Notes: a model not told the origin generated them from the letters alone. DNA of 64,000 nucleotides from Myxococcota bacterium (GCA_030748735.1 JASMLK010000080.1:16697-80696), one strand, 5' to 3'; numbered from the stretch's first letter, positions 5,556 through 48,918 are shown. Made by a program: numbers and translations.

Positions 5556-6791
5556 CTACGCGTCGGATTCACCCGCGCGCCGCCGGCGACGGGCTGCGAG
5601 TTCGAGCTTCATCGACTTCAAGATCAAGCGCGGCAACCCCAGTGGATGCTGGCGCAGCTTGCGAAGCACCAGACGCAGCATATGGCGACGGCCATCGAAG
5701 TTCGCTTCGCGTTGCCCGTGCCCCATGTGCATGCCGAGGGCCGGAACGTCGATCACGTCGAGTGGGAGTTCGAAGCGAAACGTCTCGGTTCGCGGTGGCA
5801 GGCAGATGTCGTCGTTGCAGGCCTGGTAGCGCACGCGGACTTCGACTTCGGCGCTCGTCATGTCGAGGGGGCGCGTCTCGCTCGCAAGAACTCCCGTGGG
5901 ATAGACGGGGACCACAACGTCGAAGTCGCCACTGAAGACCGGTAGCTCCATGCCCATGCTCTCGAGGCGGAGGATTTCTGGCTCTGGCATCTGCGGCGGC
6001 TCGACGGCGAGCCCCGGAGGCCCAGCCACGTCGACCTGCAGCGGGATCATGCCTTCGGGCACCGGTTCGCCGTAGACGTGCATGCCCGCTGAGAGTTCGC
6101 AGCGAACGACGATCTGACGAATGACGCCCTGGCGAAGCGTCGCGCTGCCGCCGTGGACGAAAGCCGTCACGCGAACTTCGTCATCACCACCGCTGGCGCG
6201 CGGGGCGTCGTCTGCGATCACAGCGCGACCGAAGGCAGCGTCGATCAGCACTTCGGGGCTATCGCGCTTCTTGTAGGTGTCGTGAAAGAACTTCGCGACC
6301 ACGACACCCGCTTCGTCGGTCACGTAGACGCCGGGGTACGCAATGCCGTGGAGGAAGGCGTCGTCCTTGCCGACCTGGTCGTTCAGGATGCCGTATCGGC
6401 GGATGACTTCGGAGTCGATGTCGGAGAGCAGCCGAAACGGGATGTCCTGCTTGGCCGCAAACTCGCGGAGCACGGGCTGGTCGTCGTACGAGATTGCGTA
6501 GAGCTCGATCCCCGCGTCTTCGAACTTCGCAAAGGCGTCGCGCAGCTCACCGAGCTGCGTCCAGCACGGGGGTCACCAGACCGCGGAGCGATAGAAGACC
6601 ACCACCGCCTTCGCGTTGCCACGCGTCTTGTGGAAGTCGACGGGAACGCCGTCCTTGTCGGGCAACACGAAATCCGGGAGACGTTCGCCCACCTCGGGGC
6701 CAGTCGGGTGCGCGTTGGGCAGCCCGGAGCGAGCGGGGTGCCCGAGCGGCGCCGGGGCATCGAAACCGTGATGGTCGCGTTCGATCGTCAT
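5556..6791 (-). CDS. Predicted selenoprotein: PRX_like (AhpC/TSA redoxin) domain with W-U-P-P-C active site, fused to a DsbD-alpha-like domain; in-frame TGA at 6573..6575
   Basis: ORFs 6573..6791 and 5556..6473 are in the same frame, separated only by TGA (99 nt = 33 codons to the next listed Met). Read-through gives ..AVVVFYRSAVW-U-PPCWTQLGELRDAFAKFEDAGIELYAISYDD... The C-terminal half carries YQACNDDICLPP, a DsbD-alpha-type motif. GAGGAAGG RBS lies before the ATG at 6791. Confidence 0.75.
6541..6559 (-). promoter_or_regulatory. bSECIS-like hairpin downstream of the UGA at 6573..6575
   Basis: RNA reads UGA + 13 nt + CGCAGCUC-GGU-GAGCUGCG. Perfect 8-bp stem with a G-containing apical loop. 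Confidence 0.6.
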
Positions 6792-34787: not shown

Positions 34788-34936
34788 GGAACTTCCTCCT
34801 GATGAAGCTCGCCATTATACGCACCAGAAACCCGTGTGGATTCCCTGGCTTCGCGCGGGTGGTGCTTCGTGCGAGCTGCCGCCCACTTGCCGCCCCGCAA
34901 CCCGGAAAGCTCGCGTTTCGAGTGCTCGCTTTTCAC

Positions 34937-43299: not shown

Positions 43300-44094
43300 C
43301 TACTTGCGGAATTGCTTGAAGTCCGGCTTTCGCTTCTGCATGAAGGCCGTGACCGCTTCGATGTTTTCCGGTGAGCCGGCGAGCTTCATCATCAATTCGT
43401 CTTCGATCTCGCGTGCGGCCTGGATCGCGTCCTTGTGGGGCGCTTGCAGGGTCTGCTTGATGGCGCGCAGCGAAGGCACCGACCACTGTGCGATCTCGCG
43501 CGCTTTCGCGAGGGTCGAGTCGTGCAGCTCATCGTCGGGCAGGACTCGCGCGCACAGGCCCAGCTCGAGGGCGCGCGCCGCGTCGATCCACTCGGCGGTG
43601 AACATCAACTCGTTTGCGCGTTGTCGGCCGACGGTGGTCTGCAGCGTGTAACTGCTGGCGATCTCGGGCACGAGTCCGAGGTTGGCGAAGGGCAACCGCA
43701 TGCGAAGGCTTTCGCCGGCGTAGACGATGTCCGAGGCGACCGCGATCGTGCAGCCACCGCCGATCGCAACACCCTGCACACTCGAAAGCAGCGGCTTGTC
43801 GAATTCGAAGAGCGCGTCGACGCATGCGAAGAAGCCGCTCTTCTTCCCGTCCTTGCGCGGCGGTGGCGGTTCGCCGCTGAACGAACCGAGGTCGACGCCC
43901 GAGGAAAAGTTGCCGTCCGCCCCTGCCAGTACCACGACGGCCACGCGCGGATCGTCGCGTGCTTCGTAGAGGCAATCGGTGAGCGCGTCCCACTGTGCTT
44001 CGTGGAAGGCGTTCTTCTTTTCAGGACGATTGAGGGTGGCGAACAGCACGCCCTCGTCGTCGAGGTCGCGCAATACGAATTCGGATTCCGGCAC
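43300..44094 (-). CDS. Enoyl-CoA hydratase/isomerase (crotonase family)
   Basis: ATLNRPEKKNAF.., VVVLAGADGNFSSGVDL and GVAIGGGCTIAVASD are crotonase signatures. Confidence 0.9.
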   Translation of the reverse strand: MPESEFVLRDLDDEGVLFATLNRPEKKNAFHEAQWDALTDCLYEARDDPRVAVVVLAGADGNFSSGVDLGSFSGEPPPPRKDGKKSGFFACVDALFEFDKPLLSSVQGVAIGGGCTIAVASDIVYAGESLRMRLPFANLGLVPEIASSYTLQTTVGRQRANELMFTAEWIDAARALELGLCARVLPDDELHDSTLAKAREIAQWSVPSLRAIKQTLQAPHKDAIQAAREIEDELMMKLAGSPENIEAVTAFMQKRKPDFKQFRK

Positions 44095-44143
44095 CGGCAG
44101 CTCCTGGTATGAATGACACCGCCTCAGCAGCGGGCCGGAACCT

Positions 44144-44325
44144 TAGCCCGGATTATTCATGAACATCCGTAGCGAGACGGTGCAGATTCGTGCTCTGGCA
44201 AGAGAAATCGGCGTTCCGCCGCGCAGACGTGGTTCACCCCACGTCGAGCAGCGGGACGCCGATTTCTCTTGCCAGAGTGCGGAGATGTGCCGTCGCAGTA
44301 GGATGTTCATGAATAATGCGGGCTA
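44144..44325. repeat. Long imperfect inverted repeat (~75-nt arms, ~31-nt spacer with its own hairpin); MITE-like element or structured 5' leader
   Basis: Left arm 44144..44219 and right arm 44251..44325. Outer 25 nt TAGCCCGGATTATTCATGAACATCC / GGATGTTCATGAATAATGCGGGCTA differ by 1 mismatch. An inner 21 bp, CTCTGGCAAGAGAAATCGGCG, is perfect. The central hairpin is GACGTGG-TTCACC-CCACGTC (44226..44245). Confidence 0.7.
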
Positions 44326-44391
44326 GCAGCCCCGTGTTGCCCGCTGGGCTAGCTTGCCGCGCGCCCACCGCGCCCGGAGGTTCGATCCAGC

Positions 44392-45582
44392 ATGACGAGC
44401 TTCGACTACGCCGCTAGCCCCGACCCCATCCGCAACGACCTGGCCGATGCCCATCGCCGGCAGTGGCAACGCATCGCCAACACAGGCACCTGGCTCACCG
44501 GCGCCCAGCGGGTCGCCGTGGCGGAGGAAACGCGATGGGCGCGCGACTGCGCGCTCTGCCGCGAGCGCAAACGGGCGCTCTCGCCCTTCGCAGTCGACGG
44601 CGAACACGATCATGCGGGCGTTCTTCCGGCACCGATGGTCGACGAAATCCACCGTGTCACGACCGACGCGGCGCGCCTTTCGCAGAAGTGGTTCGAGTCG
44701 TTGCTCGAGCAGGGCCTCAGCGCCGACGCATACGTCGAGGCTCTCGGCGTCGCGGTCTGCACGATCAGCATCGACGGCTTTCATCACGCGATGGGACTGC
44801 CCGTCGAACCCCTTCCCGAACCGAACGACGGCGAGCCGACACGCGAGCGCCCCGACGATCTCGTCGAAGGTGAAGCCTGGGTGCCGATGCGCGCACCGAA
44901 GGGCCTCAGTGCAGAACTCGGCCTTCCGGCCGGACAGGCGCCCTACGTGATTCGCGCGCTCTCACTCGTCCCCGCCGAAGTCCACGCCTGGGATGACCTC
45001 AGCGCCGCCCAGTACCTGAACAAGCAACAGATGATGCGCTTCGAAAAGGTCCGCGCGATCGACCGCTCACAGATCGAACTCGTGGCCGGCCGCGTCAGCG
45101 CACTCAACGAGTGTTTCTACTGAACGACTTCCCACGCGGTGATGCTCCGTGCGAGCATCGAGTATTCGGGAAGTGGCGGGCAGCTCGGTGGCATCACAGA
45201 GGGTTCCAAGGCGGGTGACGCGGGCATCGAGCATGGCGAACGACTTACGGCCTTCGCGGACGCAGCGGTTTCGGGTGACCCGGCAGCGCTGGCTACTGCG
45301 CGGGACGCCCTGCGCGAAGCGGCCGGGTCCGCGGTCGTCGTCGACGCCGCCGGCGTGATCGGCAACTTCCAGCGCATGGTGCGCATTGCAGACGGCTCGG
45401 GGATCCCCCTCGACACCATGGTCGACACGATGTCGTCCGACATCCGCGAAGACCTCGGCCTCGAGGGCTTCGAGAGCCGCAGGCTCGCCGAGCAGGGTGC
45501 GCTCGCGAAACTGTTTGCGCCGGTTGCGCGCGGGGCTGCAATGCTGGGACTGCGTATCGCGGGCCGGCGCGGACGTCGCTAG
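44392..45582 (+). CDS. Predicted selenoprotein: AhpD/carboxymuconolactone-decarboxylase (CMD)-core protein, in-frame TGA at 45121..45123 (C-x-x-U-x-x-x-H)
   Basis: ORFs 44392..45123 and 45139..45582 share a frame (747 nt offset). Read-through gives ..VSALNECFY-U-TTSHAVMLRASIEY.., which matches the AhpD C-x-x-C-x-x-x-H spacing with the His located after the TGA. GGAGG RBS present. Confidence 0.75.
45141..45159 (+). promoter_or_regulatory. bSECIS-like hairpin downstream of the UGA at 45121
   Basis: UGA + 17 nt + GAUGCUC-CGUGC-GAGCAUC. 7-bp stem with a 5-nt loop whose second base is G. Confidence 0.6.
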
Positions 45583-45606
45583 CGGATAGAGAGGAGAAGC
45601 AACAAC

Positions 45607-46377
45607 GTGGATCGCTTCAGCGTCGCAGGCAAACACATCGCCATCACCGGTGCGTCGTCGGGCTTCGGGCACCACTTCGCTGGTGTGCTCGCGCGCGAAG
45701 GCGCCCGGGTAAGCCTCGGGGCGCGGCGCACGGAAAAGATCGAAGCGCGTGTCGACGGGCTGCGCGGCGAGGGTCACGCGGCTTTCGGTGCGGCCCTCGA
45801 CGTCTGCGACCGCGCGAGCATGGAAGCCTTCTTCACGACCATCGAAGCCGAGTTCGGCCCGGTCGACGTCTTGATCAACAATGCCGGGATCGAAGCCGGC
45901 GCCAAGACCTATACGATGATCGACGAAGACGACTGGGACGCGGTCATCGACACGAACCTCAAGAGCGCATGGCTCATGAGCAAGCTCTACACCGAGCGCG
46001 TCGTCGCCAACGAGCAGCGCGAAGGCAATATCGTGATGATCTCGTCGATCACCGACACGCGGACCATCAAGGGACAGTTCCCGTATGCGATCTCGAAAGG
46101 CGGCGTGACCCGCATGACCGAAGTCCTCGCCCTCGAAGCCCCGCGCTATGGCATTCGCGTGAACGCCATTGCGCCGGGCTACATCCTCACCGACGTGAGC
46201 CGCCTGGTCGTCGAGGGTGACAACGCCCCCGACTTCGTGAAAGGCATCCCGATGCGCCGCTTCGGAAAGTTCGAAGACCTCGACGGGCCGCTCCTGCTGC
46301 TCGCTTCGGACGCGTCGCGCTGGATGAACGGGTCGATCGTGGTGGTCGACGGCGGGCACGTCTGCGCTTCTCTCTAG
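45607..46377 (+). CDS. Short-chain dehydrogenase/reductase (SDR)
   Basis: ITGASSGFGHHFA (TGxxxGxG), NNAG, and S..YAISK catalytic residues. GAGGAGA RBS precedes the GTG start. Confidence 0.9.
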   Translation: MDRFSVAGKHIAITGASSGFGHHFAGVLAREGARVSLGARRTEKIEARVDGLRGEGHAAFGAALDVCDRASMEAFFTTIEAEFGPVDVLINNAGIEAGAKTYTMIDEDDWDAVIDTNLKSAWLMSKLYTERVVANEQREGNIVMISSITDTRTIKGQFPYAISKGGVTRMTEVLALEAPRYGIRVNAIAPGYILTDVSRLVVEGDNAPDFVKGIPMRRFGKFEDLDGPLLLLASDASRWMNGSIVVVDGGHVCASL

Positions 46378-46379
46378 CG

Positions 46380-46401
46380 GGCGAGCGCCGCGGTGCTCGC
46401 C
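46380..46401. terminator. Hairpin between the convergent SDR and AhpD-like genes
   Basis: GGCGAGC-GCCGCGGT-GCTCGCC, a 7-bp perfect stem. No U-tract. Confidence 0.35.
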
Positions 46402-46415
46402 ACACCATCGTGCCG

Positions 46416-47519
46416 CTATCCGACGCCCAGAACGCGCGCGGGGGCCTTTGCGGGGTCGCCGCGTTCGATCTCGGTGTTGGCTGCTCCGCCGAACGCATTG
46501 AGCCCCAGGCGTTCGCGAAAGTCGGCCGAGCCGTGGAGCGTGCCCTCGTCGAGCGGGATCCCGCTCGAGTCGGCGGTGCGAACGAGCCCGTTGAAGATGC
46601 CCACGATGCCGCAGGCTTCCACGAAGCCCGCTTCACCCAGCGTCTTTCGCACGGCCTCACGTGCGGGGTCCATGTCGTCGTTGCCTCGCGTGACGGCTTC
46701 GGCGAAACGCACGAGGGCTTCGCCGTGTTCGATGTCGGAGGCACCCTCCCCGCCCACGGTGGCGTCGAGATTCACTTCCTGGCCAAGCTTGTCGCTGCTC
46801 GCACGGAGCAGACCCACATGGGAGGTCGTTCAGTAGAAGCATTCGTTGACGGCGCTGACCCGGGCCGCGATGAGTTCGGCTTGCGGGCGATCGAGCGGCC
46901 CTCCCCACTCCATGTCGTAGAAGCCGCCCGAGCCGTTGCTGTACATCGCCATCACGTTGGCGAAGAACAGTTGGTTCGCCGACGGTACGAGCGATAGCGC
47001 TCGCGCAACGTTGGGCCCCGTGAAGGGATCGATCATGGGCACGTGGGCGCCTGCGTCGGTTGCTTCGGCGAGTCGGCCGCCGTCGGGTTCACCGGGCTGC
47101 GGGTCCGGCAGCGGTTCGTGCGCGCGCCCCAGGGCTTCGCTGTACGCATCGATCGCACTCATGCAGGCCACGATCGAGATCAGTTCGACGTACGCGCCGT
47201 CACCCAGGGCTGCGATCTTCTTCGCCGCCCACTCGGAATCGATCTTGTGCGCATCGGCCGCGATCGTGCGTGCGGCGTCGACCGCGACTTCGGAGAGACG
47301 GCCTTCGGCGTCCGGAAGACCTTCGCGCAACCACGACGGGTCACCCCGCTTCGCCCGCGTGGCCCGCGCCTGGCGCGCGATCTCGAGGCGTTGTTCGCCC
47401 GTGAAGTACGAACCCGCATTCGCGATCTGCTGCCAACTGGTGCGGTGGACCTGCTGGATCGTGTCGCGTACCGCGAACCCGTCACGGTCGTAGGCGAAGG
47501 TCGAATCGAAGGACGTCAT
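46416..47519 (-). CDS. Predicted selenoprotein: second AhpD/CMD-core protein, in-frame TGA at 46830..46832
   Basis: ORFs 46830..47519 and 46416..46817 are in frame (12 nt apart). Read-through gives ..VSAVNECFY-U-TTSHVGLLRASSDKL... Paralog of 44392..45582, with the same MTSFD N-terminus and NECFYUTTSH core. GGAGG RBS present. Confidence 0.75.
46795..46811 (-). promoter_or_regulatory. bSECIS-like hairpin downstream of the UGA at 46830..46832
   Basis: UGA + 18 nt + CUGCUC-CGUGC-GAGCAG. The loop is identical to the paralog's. One stem pair differs by a compensatory A-U to C-G change. Confidence 0.6.
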
Positions 47520-47581
47520 GCAGTGCCTCCAGGCGCGTCAGGCGAAAACGTAGCGCGCGGTCCGGCACTCGATCGATGGAA

Positions 47582-48229
47582 TCAGATCGGGCCGCGGCCC
47601 TTCCGCCCGCCGAGGATCCAACGAATCATTTCGAGGTGTTGGCCACCCCAGAAGAGTTCGTCGTCGATCCAATAGACGGGCGCCCCTACCGCCATCCCGC
47701 GATCGAAGAGTTCTTCTCCGAGTGCGGCCAAAGTCGCGGGGCCGCGATCTCGCTGCCACGCTTCGAAACCGTCGGCTTCGAGGCCGAGTGCTGCGACCTT
47801 TTTCGCAACGGCCTCCTCGTCCGAGGGATCCAATTCCAGCGCCCAGTACGCACGGAAGATCTCGGCGAGATAATCTGCGACGCACCCGGGGGCGTGTTCG
47901 CGCACCCAGAGCCAACCCACGTTGGCCGCTGCTGGATCGGGGTCACGATAGTAGTCGCGCAACACCAACCCCTGAGCGGACGCGTAGGTTTCGATTTCTC
48001 GCGCGATCTCGCTCGCACGAGAGCGGCGGTGGCGAACGCCGCGATCATCGTCCGCACCCGGCTGCGAAGGCGCCTTCAAGGATGGAACGCTTACGGGCAA
48101 CCAGTTGATGTCGATCCCCGCTTCTCGCCCGAGCTCGATCGTCGGGTGCAATGCGAGATACGTCAGTGGTTGACGCAGGTCGAGGAGTACCGTGAGGCGC
48201 GCTTCGTCGATCGCAGAAGAAAAGCTCAT
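47582..48229 (-). CDS. DsbA-like thioredoxin-fold protein, 2-hydroxychromene-2-carboxylate isomerase / GST-kappa family
   Basis: ..LLDLRQPLTYLAL.. N-terminal motif, with Gln where the family usually has the catalytic Ser. C-terminal GAPVYWIDDELFWGGQHL. Start overlaps the upstream stop (ATGA). Confidence 0.8.
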   Translation of the reverse strand: MSFSSAIDEARLTVLLDLRQPLTYLALHPTIELGREAGIDINWLPVSVPSLKAPSQPGADDDRGVRHRRSRASEIAREIETYASAQGLVLRDYYRDPDPAAANVGWLWVREHAPGCVADYLAEIFRAYWALELDPSDEEAVAKKVAALGLEADGFEAWQRDRGPATLAALGEELFDRGMAVGAPVYWIDDELFWGGQHLEMIRWILGGRKGRGPI

Positions 48230-48918
48230 GCCGCGAACGACCGATTCATCATCAGCGGAGCCGGGCCCTCCTTCCCGCTCAACAGCCAGGCGATGCGGGG
48301 GAGATGCTCGCGACCAAACCAGGCTTCGTCCTCGACGAGAAAGGTCGGCACACCGAACACGCCGCCATCGAAGGCGCGCGTGTTGACTTCGTCATGCAAC
48401 GCCCGCCCTTCGCCTGATGCGTAACTTTCGAAGCCAATCGTTTCGAGCCCGGCCTTCTTCAACACGCTTTCGAACACCGCGACGTCCTCGATGTCGAGTT
48501 CGCGGTTCCAGAACGGCGGATACACGGTGTCGAGAAAGCGATCGTACGCCTCAGGTCCCTGCGCCTTCGCCCACAGCATCGCAATACCGGCGAGACTCGA
48601 ATCCCAGATCTTGATCGTCCCCCGCACGGTCTTCCCGGTGAGATTCGCGTAGCGACGGGCGTCCATGTACGCGTACTTCACGCCCTTCCATTGCTGCGGT
48701 GAGCGCTTGCTCTTTGCGACCTTCCCCTTCTTGTCGAGCTTTGCGCTCCCGAGATAGCTCGGGATGTCGAGTGTGAAGGGGCGCCAGTCGACCTCGACGC
48801 CGAGCGCACGCGCCATGTCGCGCGTCGGCTCGATCGCGAGGTAGGCGTACGGGCTCTTGAGGTCGATGTAGACCGCGAGGGCGTGATCGCCGCGCAGCTC
48901 ACTGAATGCGTTCGACAT
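48226..48918 (-). CDS. DsbA-like thioredoxin-fold protein, 2-hydroxychromene-2-carboxylate isomerase / GST-kappa family
   Basis: VYIDLKSPYAYLA (the SPY motif carrying the Ser) and GVFGVPTFLVEDEAWFGREHL are family signatures. Confidence 0.85.
   Translation of the reverse strand: MSNAFSELRGDHALAVYIDLKSPYAYLAIEPTRDMARALGVEVDWRPFTLDIPSYLGSAKLDKKGKVAKSKRSPQQWKGVKYAYMDARRYANLTGKTVRGTIKIWDSSLAGIAMLWAKAQGPEAYDRFLDTVYPPFWNRELDIEDVAVFESVLKKAGLETIGFESYASGEGRALHDEVNTRAFDGGVFGVPTFLVEDEAWFGREHLPRIAWLLSGKEGPAPLMMNRSFAA

What the first reader, a model, noticed from the sequence alone, without database searches (positions are those of the whole stretch)
46416..47519. Second AhpD-like Sec gene on the opposite strand; its SECIS-like stem covaries with the paralog
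The architecture is the same: MTSFD.. N-terminus, then ..VSAVNECFY-U-TTSHVGLLRASS.., with TGA at 46830-46832. The hairpin is CUGCUC-CGUGC-GAGCAG, with an apical loop (CGUGC) identical to the paralog's.

Comparing the two stems, paralog A has A(45142)-U(45158) where paralog B has C-G. This is a double compensatory change. It also changes the encoded residues (Met to Leu on one arm, Ile to Ser on the other). That suggests selection on the RNA pairing as well as on the protein sequence. Two convergent paralogs flanking an SDR suggests a duplicated functional unit.
Basis: seen in the sequence. Interest (0 to 1): 0.75.

Follow-up and report, generated by a model that had tools for sequence, protein, structure and literature searches.

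The report
Known AhpD-related selenoprotein gene with SECIS
This is a genuine selenocysteine-encoding gene whose in-frame UGA is followed by the RNA hairpin that directs selenocysteine insertion, but it belongs to a family first described in 2005 and already curated, so it is ordinary apart from being truncated in the public annotation.

Summary
On the minus strand, 47519..46416 is one 367-codon reading frame with a single in-frame TGA (46832..46830) in the motif NE-C-F-Y-U-T-T-S-H. The hairpin CUGCUC-CGUGC-GAGCAG starts 18 nt after the UGA. Paralog A (44392..45582) has the same layout, with A-U where B has C-G.

Both proteins match NCBIfam NF041238 [quoted passage not shown] far above its cut-off. 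A 2026 review equates this family with "hypothetical protein 1" of the 2005 Sargasso Sea selenoproteome.

- All 80 orthologous loci, from several bacterial phyla, have TGA at this codon and an open, homologous frame after it.
- The hairpin is 89% paired, against 23-54% in slid controls, with double-sided changes in 5 of 8 pairs.
- Synonymous variation collapses in exactly the hairpin codons.
- Recoding the same peptide keeps only 3.8 of 8 pairs, against 7.1 observed.
- Cys-form homologs lack the hairpin.

The hairpin meets every constraint of the published bacterial SECIS model.

The "duplicated functional unit" idea is not supported. The paralogs are only 38% identical, and the A-SDR-B layout recurs only in the closest relative.

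Verdict: a real, ordinary member of a known selenoprotein family. Its only practical novelty is that the public record annotates it as a truncated 229-aa hypothetical protein.

The parts
46416..47519 (-). Paralog B: complete selenoprotein gene of 367 codons, Sec at codon 230. It has an N-terminal domain with no Pfam match and a C-terminal AhpD/CMD-like domain.
   Evidence: Read-through translation. NF041238 at 311.8 bits against a cut-off of 175. Pfam CMD at 30.6 bits against a cut-off of 23. The public record calls only residues 1-229 (P0001).
46830..46832 (-). Sec codon UGA.
   Evidence: TGA at the homologous codon in 82 of 82 sequences. It aligns with Cys in full-length CFYC homologs.
46830..46841 (-). 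Redox motif C-F-Y-U (Cys227...Sec230), within the signature E215-x11-C-x2-U-x3-H234.
   Evidence: Read from the sequence. E215, C227, F228 and Y229 are invariant in alignment A1. The CxxC of solved AhpD-like proteins aligns here.
46795..46811 (-). SECIS core hairpin: 6-bp stem CUGCUC/GAGCAG and 5-nt loop CGUGC. The loop begins 24 nt after the UGA.
   Evidence: -8.7 to -10.0 kcal/mol. Covariation. Suppressed synonymous variation. Recoding test.
44392..45582 (+). Paralog A: the same family, 396 codons, Sec codon at 45121-45123, with an extra N-terminal CALC motif.
   Evidence: NF041238 at 473.8 bits. 38% identity to B across the UGA.
45141..45159 (+). SECIS hairpin of paralog A: GAUGCUC-CGUGC-GAGCAUC. 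In this sequence a lower stem, ACUUCCC/GGGAAGU, spans 45127-45174.
   Evidence: -11.1 kcal/mol for 30 nt; -21.9 kcal/mol, z = -3.25 for 50 nt. The lower stem is not well kept in L001.
45607..46377 (+). Short-chain dehydrogenase/reductase gene lying between the two paralogs.
   Evidence: Pfam adh_short and adh_short_C2. The same position in L001 only.
47582..48918 (-). Two DsbA-like (PF01323) genes directly upstream of B on the same strand, separated from it by a 62-nt gap. They probably form one operon with B.
   Evidence: Conserved upstream of B only in L001.

Best explanation
Gene B (47519..46416, minus strand) encodes a 367-residue selenoprotein of the curated family NF041238 (AhpD_rel_CFYUT).

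Inferred mechanism of decoding: when the ribosome reaches UGA 46832..46830, the hairpin CUGCUC-CGUGC-GAGCAG in the mRNA acts as a bacterial SECIS. The hairpin starts 18 nt downstream and its loop carries G-U at positions 2-3. It is expected to bind SelB-GTP-Sec-tRNA(Sec), so that selenocysteine is inserted and translation continues for another 137 codons.

Inferred function of the product: the protein has an AhpD/CMD-like C-terminal domain whose catalytic signature E-x11-C-x2-C-x3-H carries Sec in place of the second Cys. It most likely acts as a thiol/selenol oxidoreductase, either peroxidase-related or a disulfide reductase.

What is shown and what is inferred:
- Shown: the in-frame UGA, the conserved downstream frame, family membership, and RNA-level selection on the hairpin.
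- Inferred: SelB binding, actual Sec insertion, and the enzymatic activity and its partners.
For: Family and motif:
- NF041238 scores 311.8 bits (B) and 473.8 bits (A) against a cut-off of 175.
- 82 of 82 sequences from Myxococcota, Gammaproteobacteria, Acidimicrobiales, Acidobacteriota, Spirochaetaceae, Opitutales and Binatia have TGA right after ECFY.

Read-through:
- The frame after the UGA stays open for 120-166 codons in 76 of 77 complete loci.
- It matches the C-terminal part of the Cys-form P0131 in 78 of 79 loci.
- Full-length homologs have CFYC at the same place.

Hairpin:
- 89.1% of cells are paired, against 22.8-53.9% when the partner is slid.
- 5 of 8 pairs show double-sided changes, in 31 cells.
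- The covariation score is 0.238 against 0.175 for shuffles, reached by 0 of 500 shuffles.
- Loop G29 is invariant; the loop is CGUGC, CGUGU, CGGGC, CGUGA or AGUNU.

Synonymous sites in the hairpin codons:
- Leu is CTG in 57 of 58 sequences.
- Leu is CTC in 72 and CTT in 9.
- Arg is CGT in 63 and CGG in 14.
- Ala is GCG in 52 and GCA in 3.
- Ser is always AGY at codon +11.
- Flanking 4-fold codons carry 1.2-1.9 bits of codon entropy.

Controls:
- Recodings that keep the peptide retain 3.78 of 8 pairs, against 7.14 observed.
- Cys forms average 3.35 of 8 pairs. Four close Cys forms have 5-6 of 8 and no hairpin in their MFE fold.

Model and fold:
- The published bSECIS model asks for a loop of 3-9 nt, a stem of 4-16 bp, a G in the first two loop positions, 16-37 nt between UGA and loop, and MFE <= -7.5 kcal/mol (PMC13188914). 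All are met.
- A family profile matches solved AhpD-like structures 6k40 and 3c1l at E = 1e-16, with the CxxC aligned.
- An AlphaFold model of a Cys-form homolog (pLDDT 90) matches the AhpD core structure 2prr at TM 0.74.
- A third Sec-type gene in the same window suggests that the organism decodes Sec.
Against: - No selA, selB, selC or selD and no tRNA gene lie in the 64-kb window. The organism's Sec machinery is therefore not shown here.
- On its own, B's hairpin is no more stable than shuffles of the same GC-rich sequence (z = -1.0).
- The compensatory changes are few independent events, because the sequences are related. The shuffle control does not correct for phylogeny.
- Most Cys-form comparators are distant, and some are AT-rich.
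- No experimental data on this family's activity was found in the papers searched and read here.
Confidence: 0.93

Rival explanations
1. The hairpin is a by-product of the conserved peptide (M/L)-L-R-A-S-(S/I) and has no RNA-level role.
For: The peptide is conserved among Sec forms. The single-sequence fold energy is unremarkable.
Against: Synonymous sites are nearly frozen only in the hairpin codons. Recoding the same peptide with each gene's own codon usage gives 3.78 of 8 pairs against 7.14 observed. The Cys-form L101 keeps M-L-R-S-S-S but its MFE fold lacks the hairpin. Double-sided changes keep the pairing.
Confidence: 0.03
2. The TGA is a real stop. On this view, 47519..46830 and 46817..46416 are two separate genes, or the gene is a broken pseudogene.
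For: Public annotation calls only the 229-aa N-terminal product (P0001). A GTG-started 133-aa ORF exists downstream.
Against: The same stop sits at the same codon in 82 of 82 sequences across phyla. The frame stays open and homologous for about 120-166 codons afterwards. Cys forms are single polypeptides of 324-418 aa. The stop falls inside the catalytic CxxC motif and splits the AhpD fold.
Confidence: 0.02
3. The UGA is read through by something other than the Sec pathway, for example a reassigned genetic code or near-cognate suppression, and the hairpin merely slows termination.
For: Sec machinery is not visible in the window.
Against: TGA serves as the ordinary stop elsewhere in the window's genes. 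The codon aligns with a redox Cys in homologs. The hairpin fits the SelB-type SECIS model, including the loop G-U. The host phyla are not known to reassign UGA (established knowledge).
Confidence: 0.02

Closest known systems
NCBIfam NF041238 AhpD_rel_CFYUT, alkylhydroperoxidase-related (seleno)protein; equated with 'hypothetical protein 1' of the Sargasso Sea selenoproteome (Zhang et al. 2005, PMC1088965; table in PMC13188914)
   Same: A full-length match of about 357 profile positions, the C-F-Y-U-T motif, and Sec as the second residue of CxxU. Both window paralogs score far above the cut-off.
   Different: Nothing of substance. B lacks the N-terminal CxxC that A and most Cys forms have and scores lower than A.
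AhpD-like selenoproteins 1 and 2 (COG2128 / TIGR01926; PF02627) of marine metagenomes (PMC2398784)
   Same: An AhpD/CMD fold, the CxxU motif, and a bSECIS immediately downstream.
   Different: The solved TIGR01926-type (peroxidase-related) relatives are single-domain proteins of about 190 residues. Here an additional N-terminal domain of about 190 residues has no Pfam match. TIGR01926 scores 39.7 bits against a cut-off of 81.8.
Bacterial SECIS consensus (bSECISearch model; the prototype is E. coli fdhF)
   Same: A stem-loop inside the coding region, G then U in a small apical loop, 24 nt from UGA to loop, and MFE below -7.5 kcal/mol. Some orthologs have a bulged base in the stem.
   Different: The primary sequence is family-specific and unusually conserved across phyla. 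SelB binding was not tested.
Mycobacterium tuberculosis AhpD (TIGR00777)
   Same: The signature E-x11-CxxC-x3-H and an all-helical fold.
   Different: It is not an ortholog: 13.7 bits against a cut-off of 191.95. There is no adjacent ahpC. Sec replaces the second Cys.

Membership tests
Bacterial selenoprotein gene (Sec-UGA plus bSECIS) | An in-frame UGA aligned with Cys in homologs | tested here: met
   TGA in 82 of 82 orthologs. CFYC at the same place in 20 full-length homologs.
Bacterial selenoprotein gene (Sec-UGA plus bSECIS) | A reading frame that is conserved and homologous downstream of the UGA | tested here: met
   The frame stays open for 120-166 codons in 76 of 77 loci. 78 of 79 match the C-terminal part of a Cys form.
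Bacterial selenoprotein gene (Sec-UGA plus bSECIS) | bSECIS model: loop of 3-9 nt, upper stem of 4-16 bp, G in the first two loop positions, 16-37 nt from UGA to loop, MFE <= -7.5 kcal/mol (PMC13188914) | tested here: met
   Loop CGUGC of 5 nt, stem of 6 bp, G at loop position 2 followed by U, spacing of 24 nt, and -8.7 to -10.0 kcal/mol.
Bacterial selenoprotein gene (Sec-UGA plus bSECIS) | A hairpin maintained by selection on the RNA (covariation, synonymous constraint, absence in Cys forms) | tested here: met
Bacterial selenoprotein gene (Sec-UGA plus bSECIS) | A genome that encodes selA, selB, selC (tRNA-Sec) and selD | not testable with these tools
   None of these lies in the 64-kb window, and the rest of the MAG is not available. 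Indirect support: three Sec-type genes in the window.
Bacterial selenoprotein gene (Sec-UGA plus bSECIS) | Selenium actually incorporated at the UGA | not testable with these tools
   This needs 75Se labelling or mass spectrometry.
NF041238 AhpD_rel_CFYUT | A whole-protein score above the curated cut-off of 175 bits | tested here: met
   B scores 311.8 bits and A scores 473.8 bits.
NF041238 AhpD_rel_CFYUT | The C-F-Y-U-T motif | tested here: met
   NECFY-U-TTSH in both paralogs.
AhpD/CMD superfamily (PF02627) | A Pfam score above the gathering threshold of 23 bits | tested here: met
   B scores 30.6 bits. A scores 22.4 bits, just below the threshold. A family profile matches solved AhpD-like chains at E = 1e-16. 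A model of a Cys homolog matches 2prr at TM 0.74.
AhpD/CMD superfamily (PF02627) | The catalytic signature E-x11-C-x2-C-x3-H | tested here: met
   E215-x11-C227-FY-U230-TTS-H234. E215 and C227 are invariant. Sec replaces the second Cys.
AhpD sensu stricto (TIGR00777) | A score above the cut-off of 191.95 bits | tested here: not met
   13.7 bits for B and 15 bits for A. The gene is related to AhpD but is not an AhpD ortholog.

The most novel reading that the evidence does not exclude
In this Myxococcota lineage, the two old paralogs (A with an extra N-terminal CxxC, B without), the SDR between them and the two DsbA-like genes upstream of B may form one selenium-dependent redox module. The family's two halves may both be AhpD-like, giving a sestrin-like double fold. 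The SECIS, nearly identical across phyla, may travel with the gene by horizontal transfer and may dictate the conserved L-L-R-A-S-S peptide.
Probability: 0.15. Interest if true: 0.4.

Novelty: already known. Interest (0 to 1): 0.15.

Why it matters
The main value is annotation. The public record gives this gene as a 229-residue hypothetical protein cut at the Sec codon. Of the 150 best cluster representatives of the family, 128 end at the same point.

The family also makes a clean textbook case. A SECIS inside a coding region freezes synonymous sites and constrains six codons of protein sequence, and that constraint disappears in Cys forms.

It opens no new question about selenocysteine decoding.

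Tried and rejected
- Folding single sequences against shuffles gave z-scores of 0.55, -0.17 and -1.0. This is not informative in GC-rich DNA, so it was dropped in favour of comparative tests.
- Rfam has no family matching the hairpin. Its only notable hit in 44000-48000 is a spurious microRNA match on an inverted repeat.
The N-terminal alignment A1 was used instead.
An 8-sequence subset worked.
- I looked for the A-SDR-B layout, or a second family copy, in the 80 loci. Only L001 has the same layout and only L078 has a tandem pair. The idea of a conserved duplicated unit was rejected.
- Paralog A's 7-bp lower stem is not kept in L001's A copy, so it is not counted as part of the element.
- A third near-match of the hairpin 15-mer lies at 34863-34877, with 2 mismatches, in an intergenic region with no preceding frame. 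It is taken as chance.
- hhalign of the N-terminal half against the C-terminal half is too weak to claim an internal duplication (Prob 5%).

Full report
**1. The observation**

Gene B:
- The minus strand from 47519 (ATG, preceded by GGAGG) to 46416 (TAG) is one frame of 367 codons.
- It has a single internal TGA at 46832..46830, in the context ...AARVSAVNE-C-F-Y-TGA-T-T-S-H-V-G-L-L-R-A-S-S...
- Eighteen nucleotides after the TGA lies CUGCUC-CGUGC-GAGCAG, at plus-strand coordinates 46811..46795.

Paralog A:
- It runs from 44392 to 45582 on the plus strand, with TGA at 45121-45123.
- Its motif is NECFY-TGA-TTSHAVMLRASI and its hairpin is AUGCUC-CGUGC-GAGCAU (45142-45158).

The proteins are 38% identical over 365 residues, and the alignment runs straight across the TGA.

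A single-sequence test does not show that the hairpin is special:
- B's 30-nt hairpin folds at -10.0 kcal/mol with z = -1.0.
- The 73 nt after each UGA fold no better than shuffles.

Whether this is more than chance therefore had to be settled by comparison.

**2. What the gene is**

- Both proteins match NCBIfam NF041238, [quoted passage not shown]. This is an equivalog model with a cut-off of 175 bits. B scores 311.8 bits and A scores 473.8 bits.
- Pfam sees only a short CMD (PF02627) match around the motif.
- A profile of full-length Cys-form relatives matches solved AhpD-like and peroxidase-related structures (6k40, 3c1l, 2pfx, 2oyo, 2prr). E-values reach 1e-16 over the C-terminal half, with their CxxC aligned to CFY(C/U).
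- An AlphaFold model of the Cys-form relative P0131 (pLDDT 90.3, pTM 0.91) is all-helical. It matches the AhpD core structure 2prr at TM 0.74, normalised to the target.
- The AhpD-type signature is present in B as E215-x11-C227-x2-U230-x3-H234. E215 and C227 are invariant in the family alignment.
- It is not an ortholog of AhpD proper: TIGR00777 scores 13.7 bits against a cut-off of 191.95.
- The N-terminal domain of about 190 residues has no Pfam or PDB sequence match.

**3. Is the UGA decoded?**

- A scan of one genome per GTDB species found 583 relatives. The best 80 loci come from Myxococcota, Pseudomonadales and other Gammaproteobacteria, Acidimicrobiales, Acidobacteriota, Spirochaetaceae, Opitutales and Binatia.
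- All 80, plus the two window genes, have TGA immediately after ...ECFY.
- After the TGA the frame stays open for 120-166 codons in 76 of 77 complete loci.
- In 78 of 79 loci, that translation matches the C-terminal part of a Cys-form homolog, at a median of 41% identity over 118 residues.
- In an exhaustive profile search, 128 of the 150 best cluster representatives end exactly at this position, because gene callers cut them at the UGA. Twenty-two are full length at 324-418 aa. Twenty of these have CFYC-type motifs and two have Gly at the position.
- The window's own gene is recorded publicly as a 229-residue "hypothetical protein QF570_11190" of a Myxococcota MAG.

A true stop, a split gene or a pseudogene is therefore excluded for practical purposes.

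**4. Is the hairpin a SECIS?**

The 48 nt from the TGA align without gaps in 81 sequences. For the helix at columns 20-27 paired with 33-40:
- 89.1% of cells form standard pairs, against 22.8-53.9% when the 3' partner is slid by 1-3 columns.
- Five of eight pairs show changes on both sides, in 31 cells.
- The covariation score is 0.238 against 0.175 +/- 0.010 for shuffles, reached by 0 of 500.

| Pair (columns) | Pair types observed |
|---|---|
| 27-33 (loop-closing) | C-G 72, U-A 7, U-G 1 |
| 23-37 | U-A 51, U-G 23, C-G 2 |

- The 16 unpaired cases at 22-38 are gammaproteobacterial A-type genes. In them the helix continues past a bulged A, with G21-C38 in 14 and C20-G39 in 11.
- In four sequences, loop positions C28 and C32 become A and U. 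This adds a pair and leaves a GUN triloop.
- Loop G29 is invariant.

Synonymous variation shows that the selection acts on the RNA. The figures below are codon entropy among sequences that share the modal residue.

| Codon after UGA | Residue | Codons used | Entropy (bits) |
|---|---|---|---|
| +7 | Leu | CTG 57, TTG 1 | 0.13 |
| +8 | Leu | CTC 72, CTT 9 | 0.50 |
| +9 | Arg | CGT 63, CGG 14 | 0.68 |
| +10 | Ala | GCG 52, GCA 3 | 0.31 |
| +11 | Ser | AGC 69, AGT 9, never TCN | 0.52 |
| Flanking 4-fold codons | various | varied | 1.2-1.9 |
| Upstream 2-fold codons | various | varied | 0.64-0.92 |

I then recoded codons +6 to +13 synonymously, using each gene's own codon usage. This keeps 3.78 of 8 pairs on average, against 7.14 observed. 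The median fraction of recodings that reach the observed value is 0.024.

- Twenty Cys-form loci from metagenomes average 3.35 of 8 pairs at the homologous positions.
- Four close full-length Cys forms have 5-6 of 8 pairs, and the hairpin is absent from their MFE folds. One of them, L101, still encodes M-L-R-S-S-S.

The hairpin meets every constraint of the published bacterial SECIS model, quoted in PMC13188914:

| Constraint | Required | Found in B |
|---|---|---|
| Apical loop | 3-9 nt | 5 nt |
| Upper stem | 4-16 bp | 6 bp |
| UGA to loop | 16-37 nt | 24 nt |
| MFE | <= -7.5 kcal/mol | -8.7 to -10.0 kcal/mol |

Rfam has no model that matches the hairpin.

**5. How it most likely works**

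The following steps are inferred, not shown:
- The hairpin recruits SelB carrying Sec-tRNA(Sec) to the ribosome paused at the UGA.
- Sec is inserted at position 230.
- The full-length protein uses the Cys227/Sec230 pair, with E215 and H234 as the proton relay, for thiol/selenol redox chemistry of the AhpD type.

From memory of the M. tuberculosis AhpD literature, which I did not check here, the second Cys of the CxxC is the attacking nucleophile. That would make it the natural position for Sec.

No Sec-machinery gene and no tRNA gene lie in the window, so the host's Sec trait is not demonstrated directly. A third Sec-type gene in the window supports it. That gene is an AhpC/TSA + DsbD_N protein with VW-U-PPC, TGA at 6573-6575 on the minus strand, and a strong hairpin GCAGCUC-GGU-GAGCUGC 14 nt downstream.

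**6. Context and the "duplicated unit" idea**

- B follows two DsbA-like genes on the same strand (47582-48229 and 48226-48918), after a 62-nt gap. It converges on an SDR gene (45607-46377) that follows paralog A.
- This whole layout, including an A-type gene with NQCFY-TGA, recurs in the closest relative L001, a different Myxococcota MAG (74% identity for B).
- It recurs in none of the other 79 loci. One locus, L078, has a tandem pair.
- Weakly similar SDR genes lie near the gene in 11 other loci, but in other positions.
- A and B are old paralogs of two subfamilies. A, like most Cys forms, has an additional CxxC (CALC, residues 52-55) in the N-terminal domain, and B-type proteins lack it.

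The layout is therefore a lineage-specific neighbourhood, not evidence of a duplicated functional unit.

**7. Comparison with what is known, and novelty**

- AhpD-like CxxU selenoproteins were reported from the Sargasso Sea in 2005. "Hypothetical protein 1", with a CxxU motif and a predicted SECIS shown in that paper's figure 3, was among the new families (PMC1088965).
- AhpD-like families were among the most abundant selenoproteins in the Global Ocean Sampling (GOS) marine metagenome data (PMC2398784).

The gene here is a plain member of that family and its SECIS is a standard bacterial SECIS, so the finding is real and already known.

What this analysis adds is modest:
- a corrected gene model for a truncated public annotation;
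- a quantitative demonstration that the family's SECIS covaries, freezes synonymous sites and is absent from Cys forms;
- a few leads listed under things noticed in passing.

**8. Verdict**

- Observation: confirmed.
- Interpretation: supported, except for the duplicated-unit remark.
- Novelty: already known.
- Interest: low (0.15).

Noticed in passing
window 5556-6791, minus strand; TGA at 6573-6575: A third selenoprotein candidate. An AhpC/TSA + DsbD_N protein is interrupted by an in-frame TGA in the motif VW-U-PPC (UxxC). A strong hairpin, GCAGCUC-GGU-GAGCUGC, starts 14 nt after the UGA.
   Followed up: partly
window 44144-44325: A nested inverted repeat lies in the gap between the enoyl-CoA hydratase gene and paralog A. 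It has 25-nt arms that are 96% complementary and 47-nt arms that are 81% complementary. It produces a spurious Rfam MIR1437 hit of 49.5 bits and mirror-image ORFs on both strands. It may be a small palindromic mobile or repeat element.
   Followed up: no
L102 879-2087 (P0207; GCA_044231025.1 contig JAZHBT012768746.1): A family member with S-F-Y-G, that is GGT in place of TGA and Ser in place of the first Cys. It still has the intact hairpin CUGCUC-CGCGC-GAGCGG and the LLRASG peptide. It looks like a fossil SECIS in a copy that has lost its redox residues.
   Followed up: partly
window 44545-44556 (paralog A residues 52-55, CALC); absent from B: Paralog A and most Cys-form relatives carry a second CxxC in the N-terminal domain, and the B-type clade has lost it. 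hhalign places this CxxC on the C-terminal CFYC motif, but weakly (Prob 5%). Foldseek gives a weak whole-length hit to Sestrin2, 5dj4 (TMq 0.45). The family may therefore have a double AhpD-like architecture.
   Followed up: partly
   Followed up: yes
L078 2381 and 3730: One Azotimanducaceae MAG carries two tandem family copies whose sequences after the UGA are nearly identical.
   Followed up: no
L012, about 63 nt after its Sec TGA: One ortholog has an extra in-frame stop 20 codons after the Sec codon, where its near-identical relative L013 has Glu. This is either a sequencing error or a recent pseudogene.
   Followed up: no
window 46380-46401: An 11-nt perfect-spacing palindrome, GGCGAGCGCCG/CGGTGCTCGCC, lies in the 38-nt gap between the convergent SDR gene and gene B. 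It may be a bidirectional terminator, although it has no T-run.
   Followed up: no
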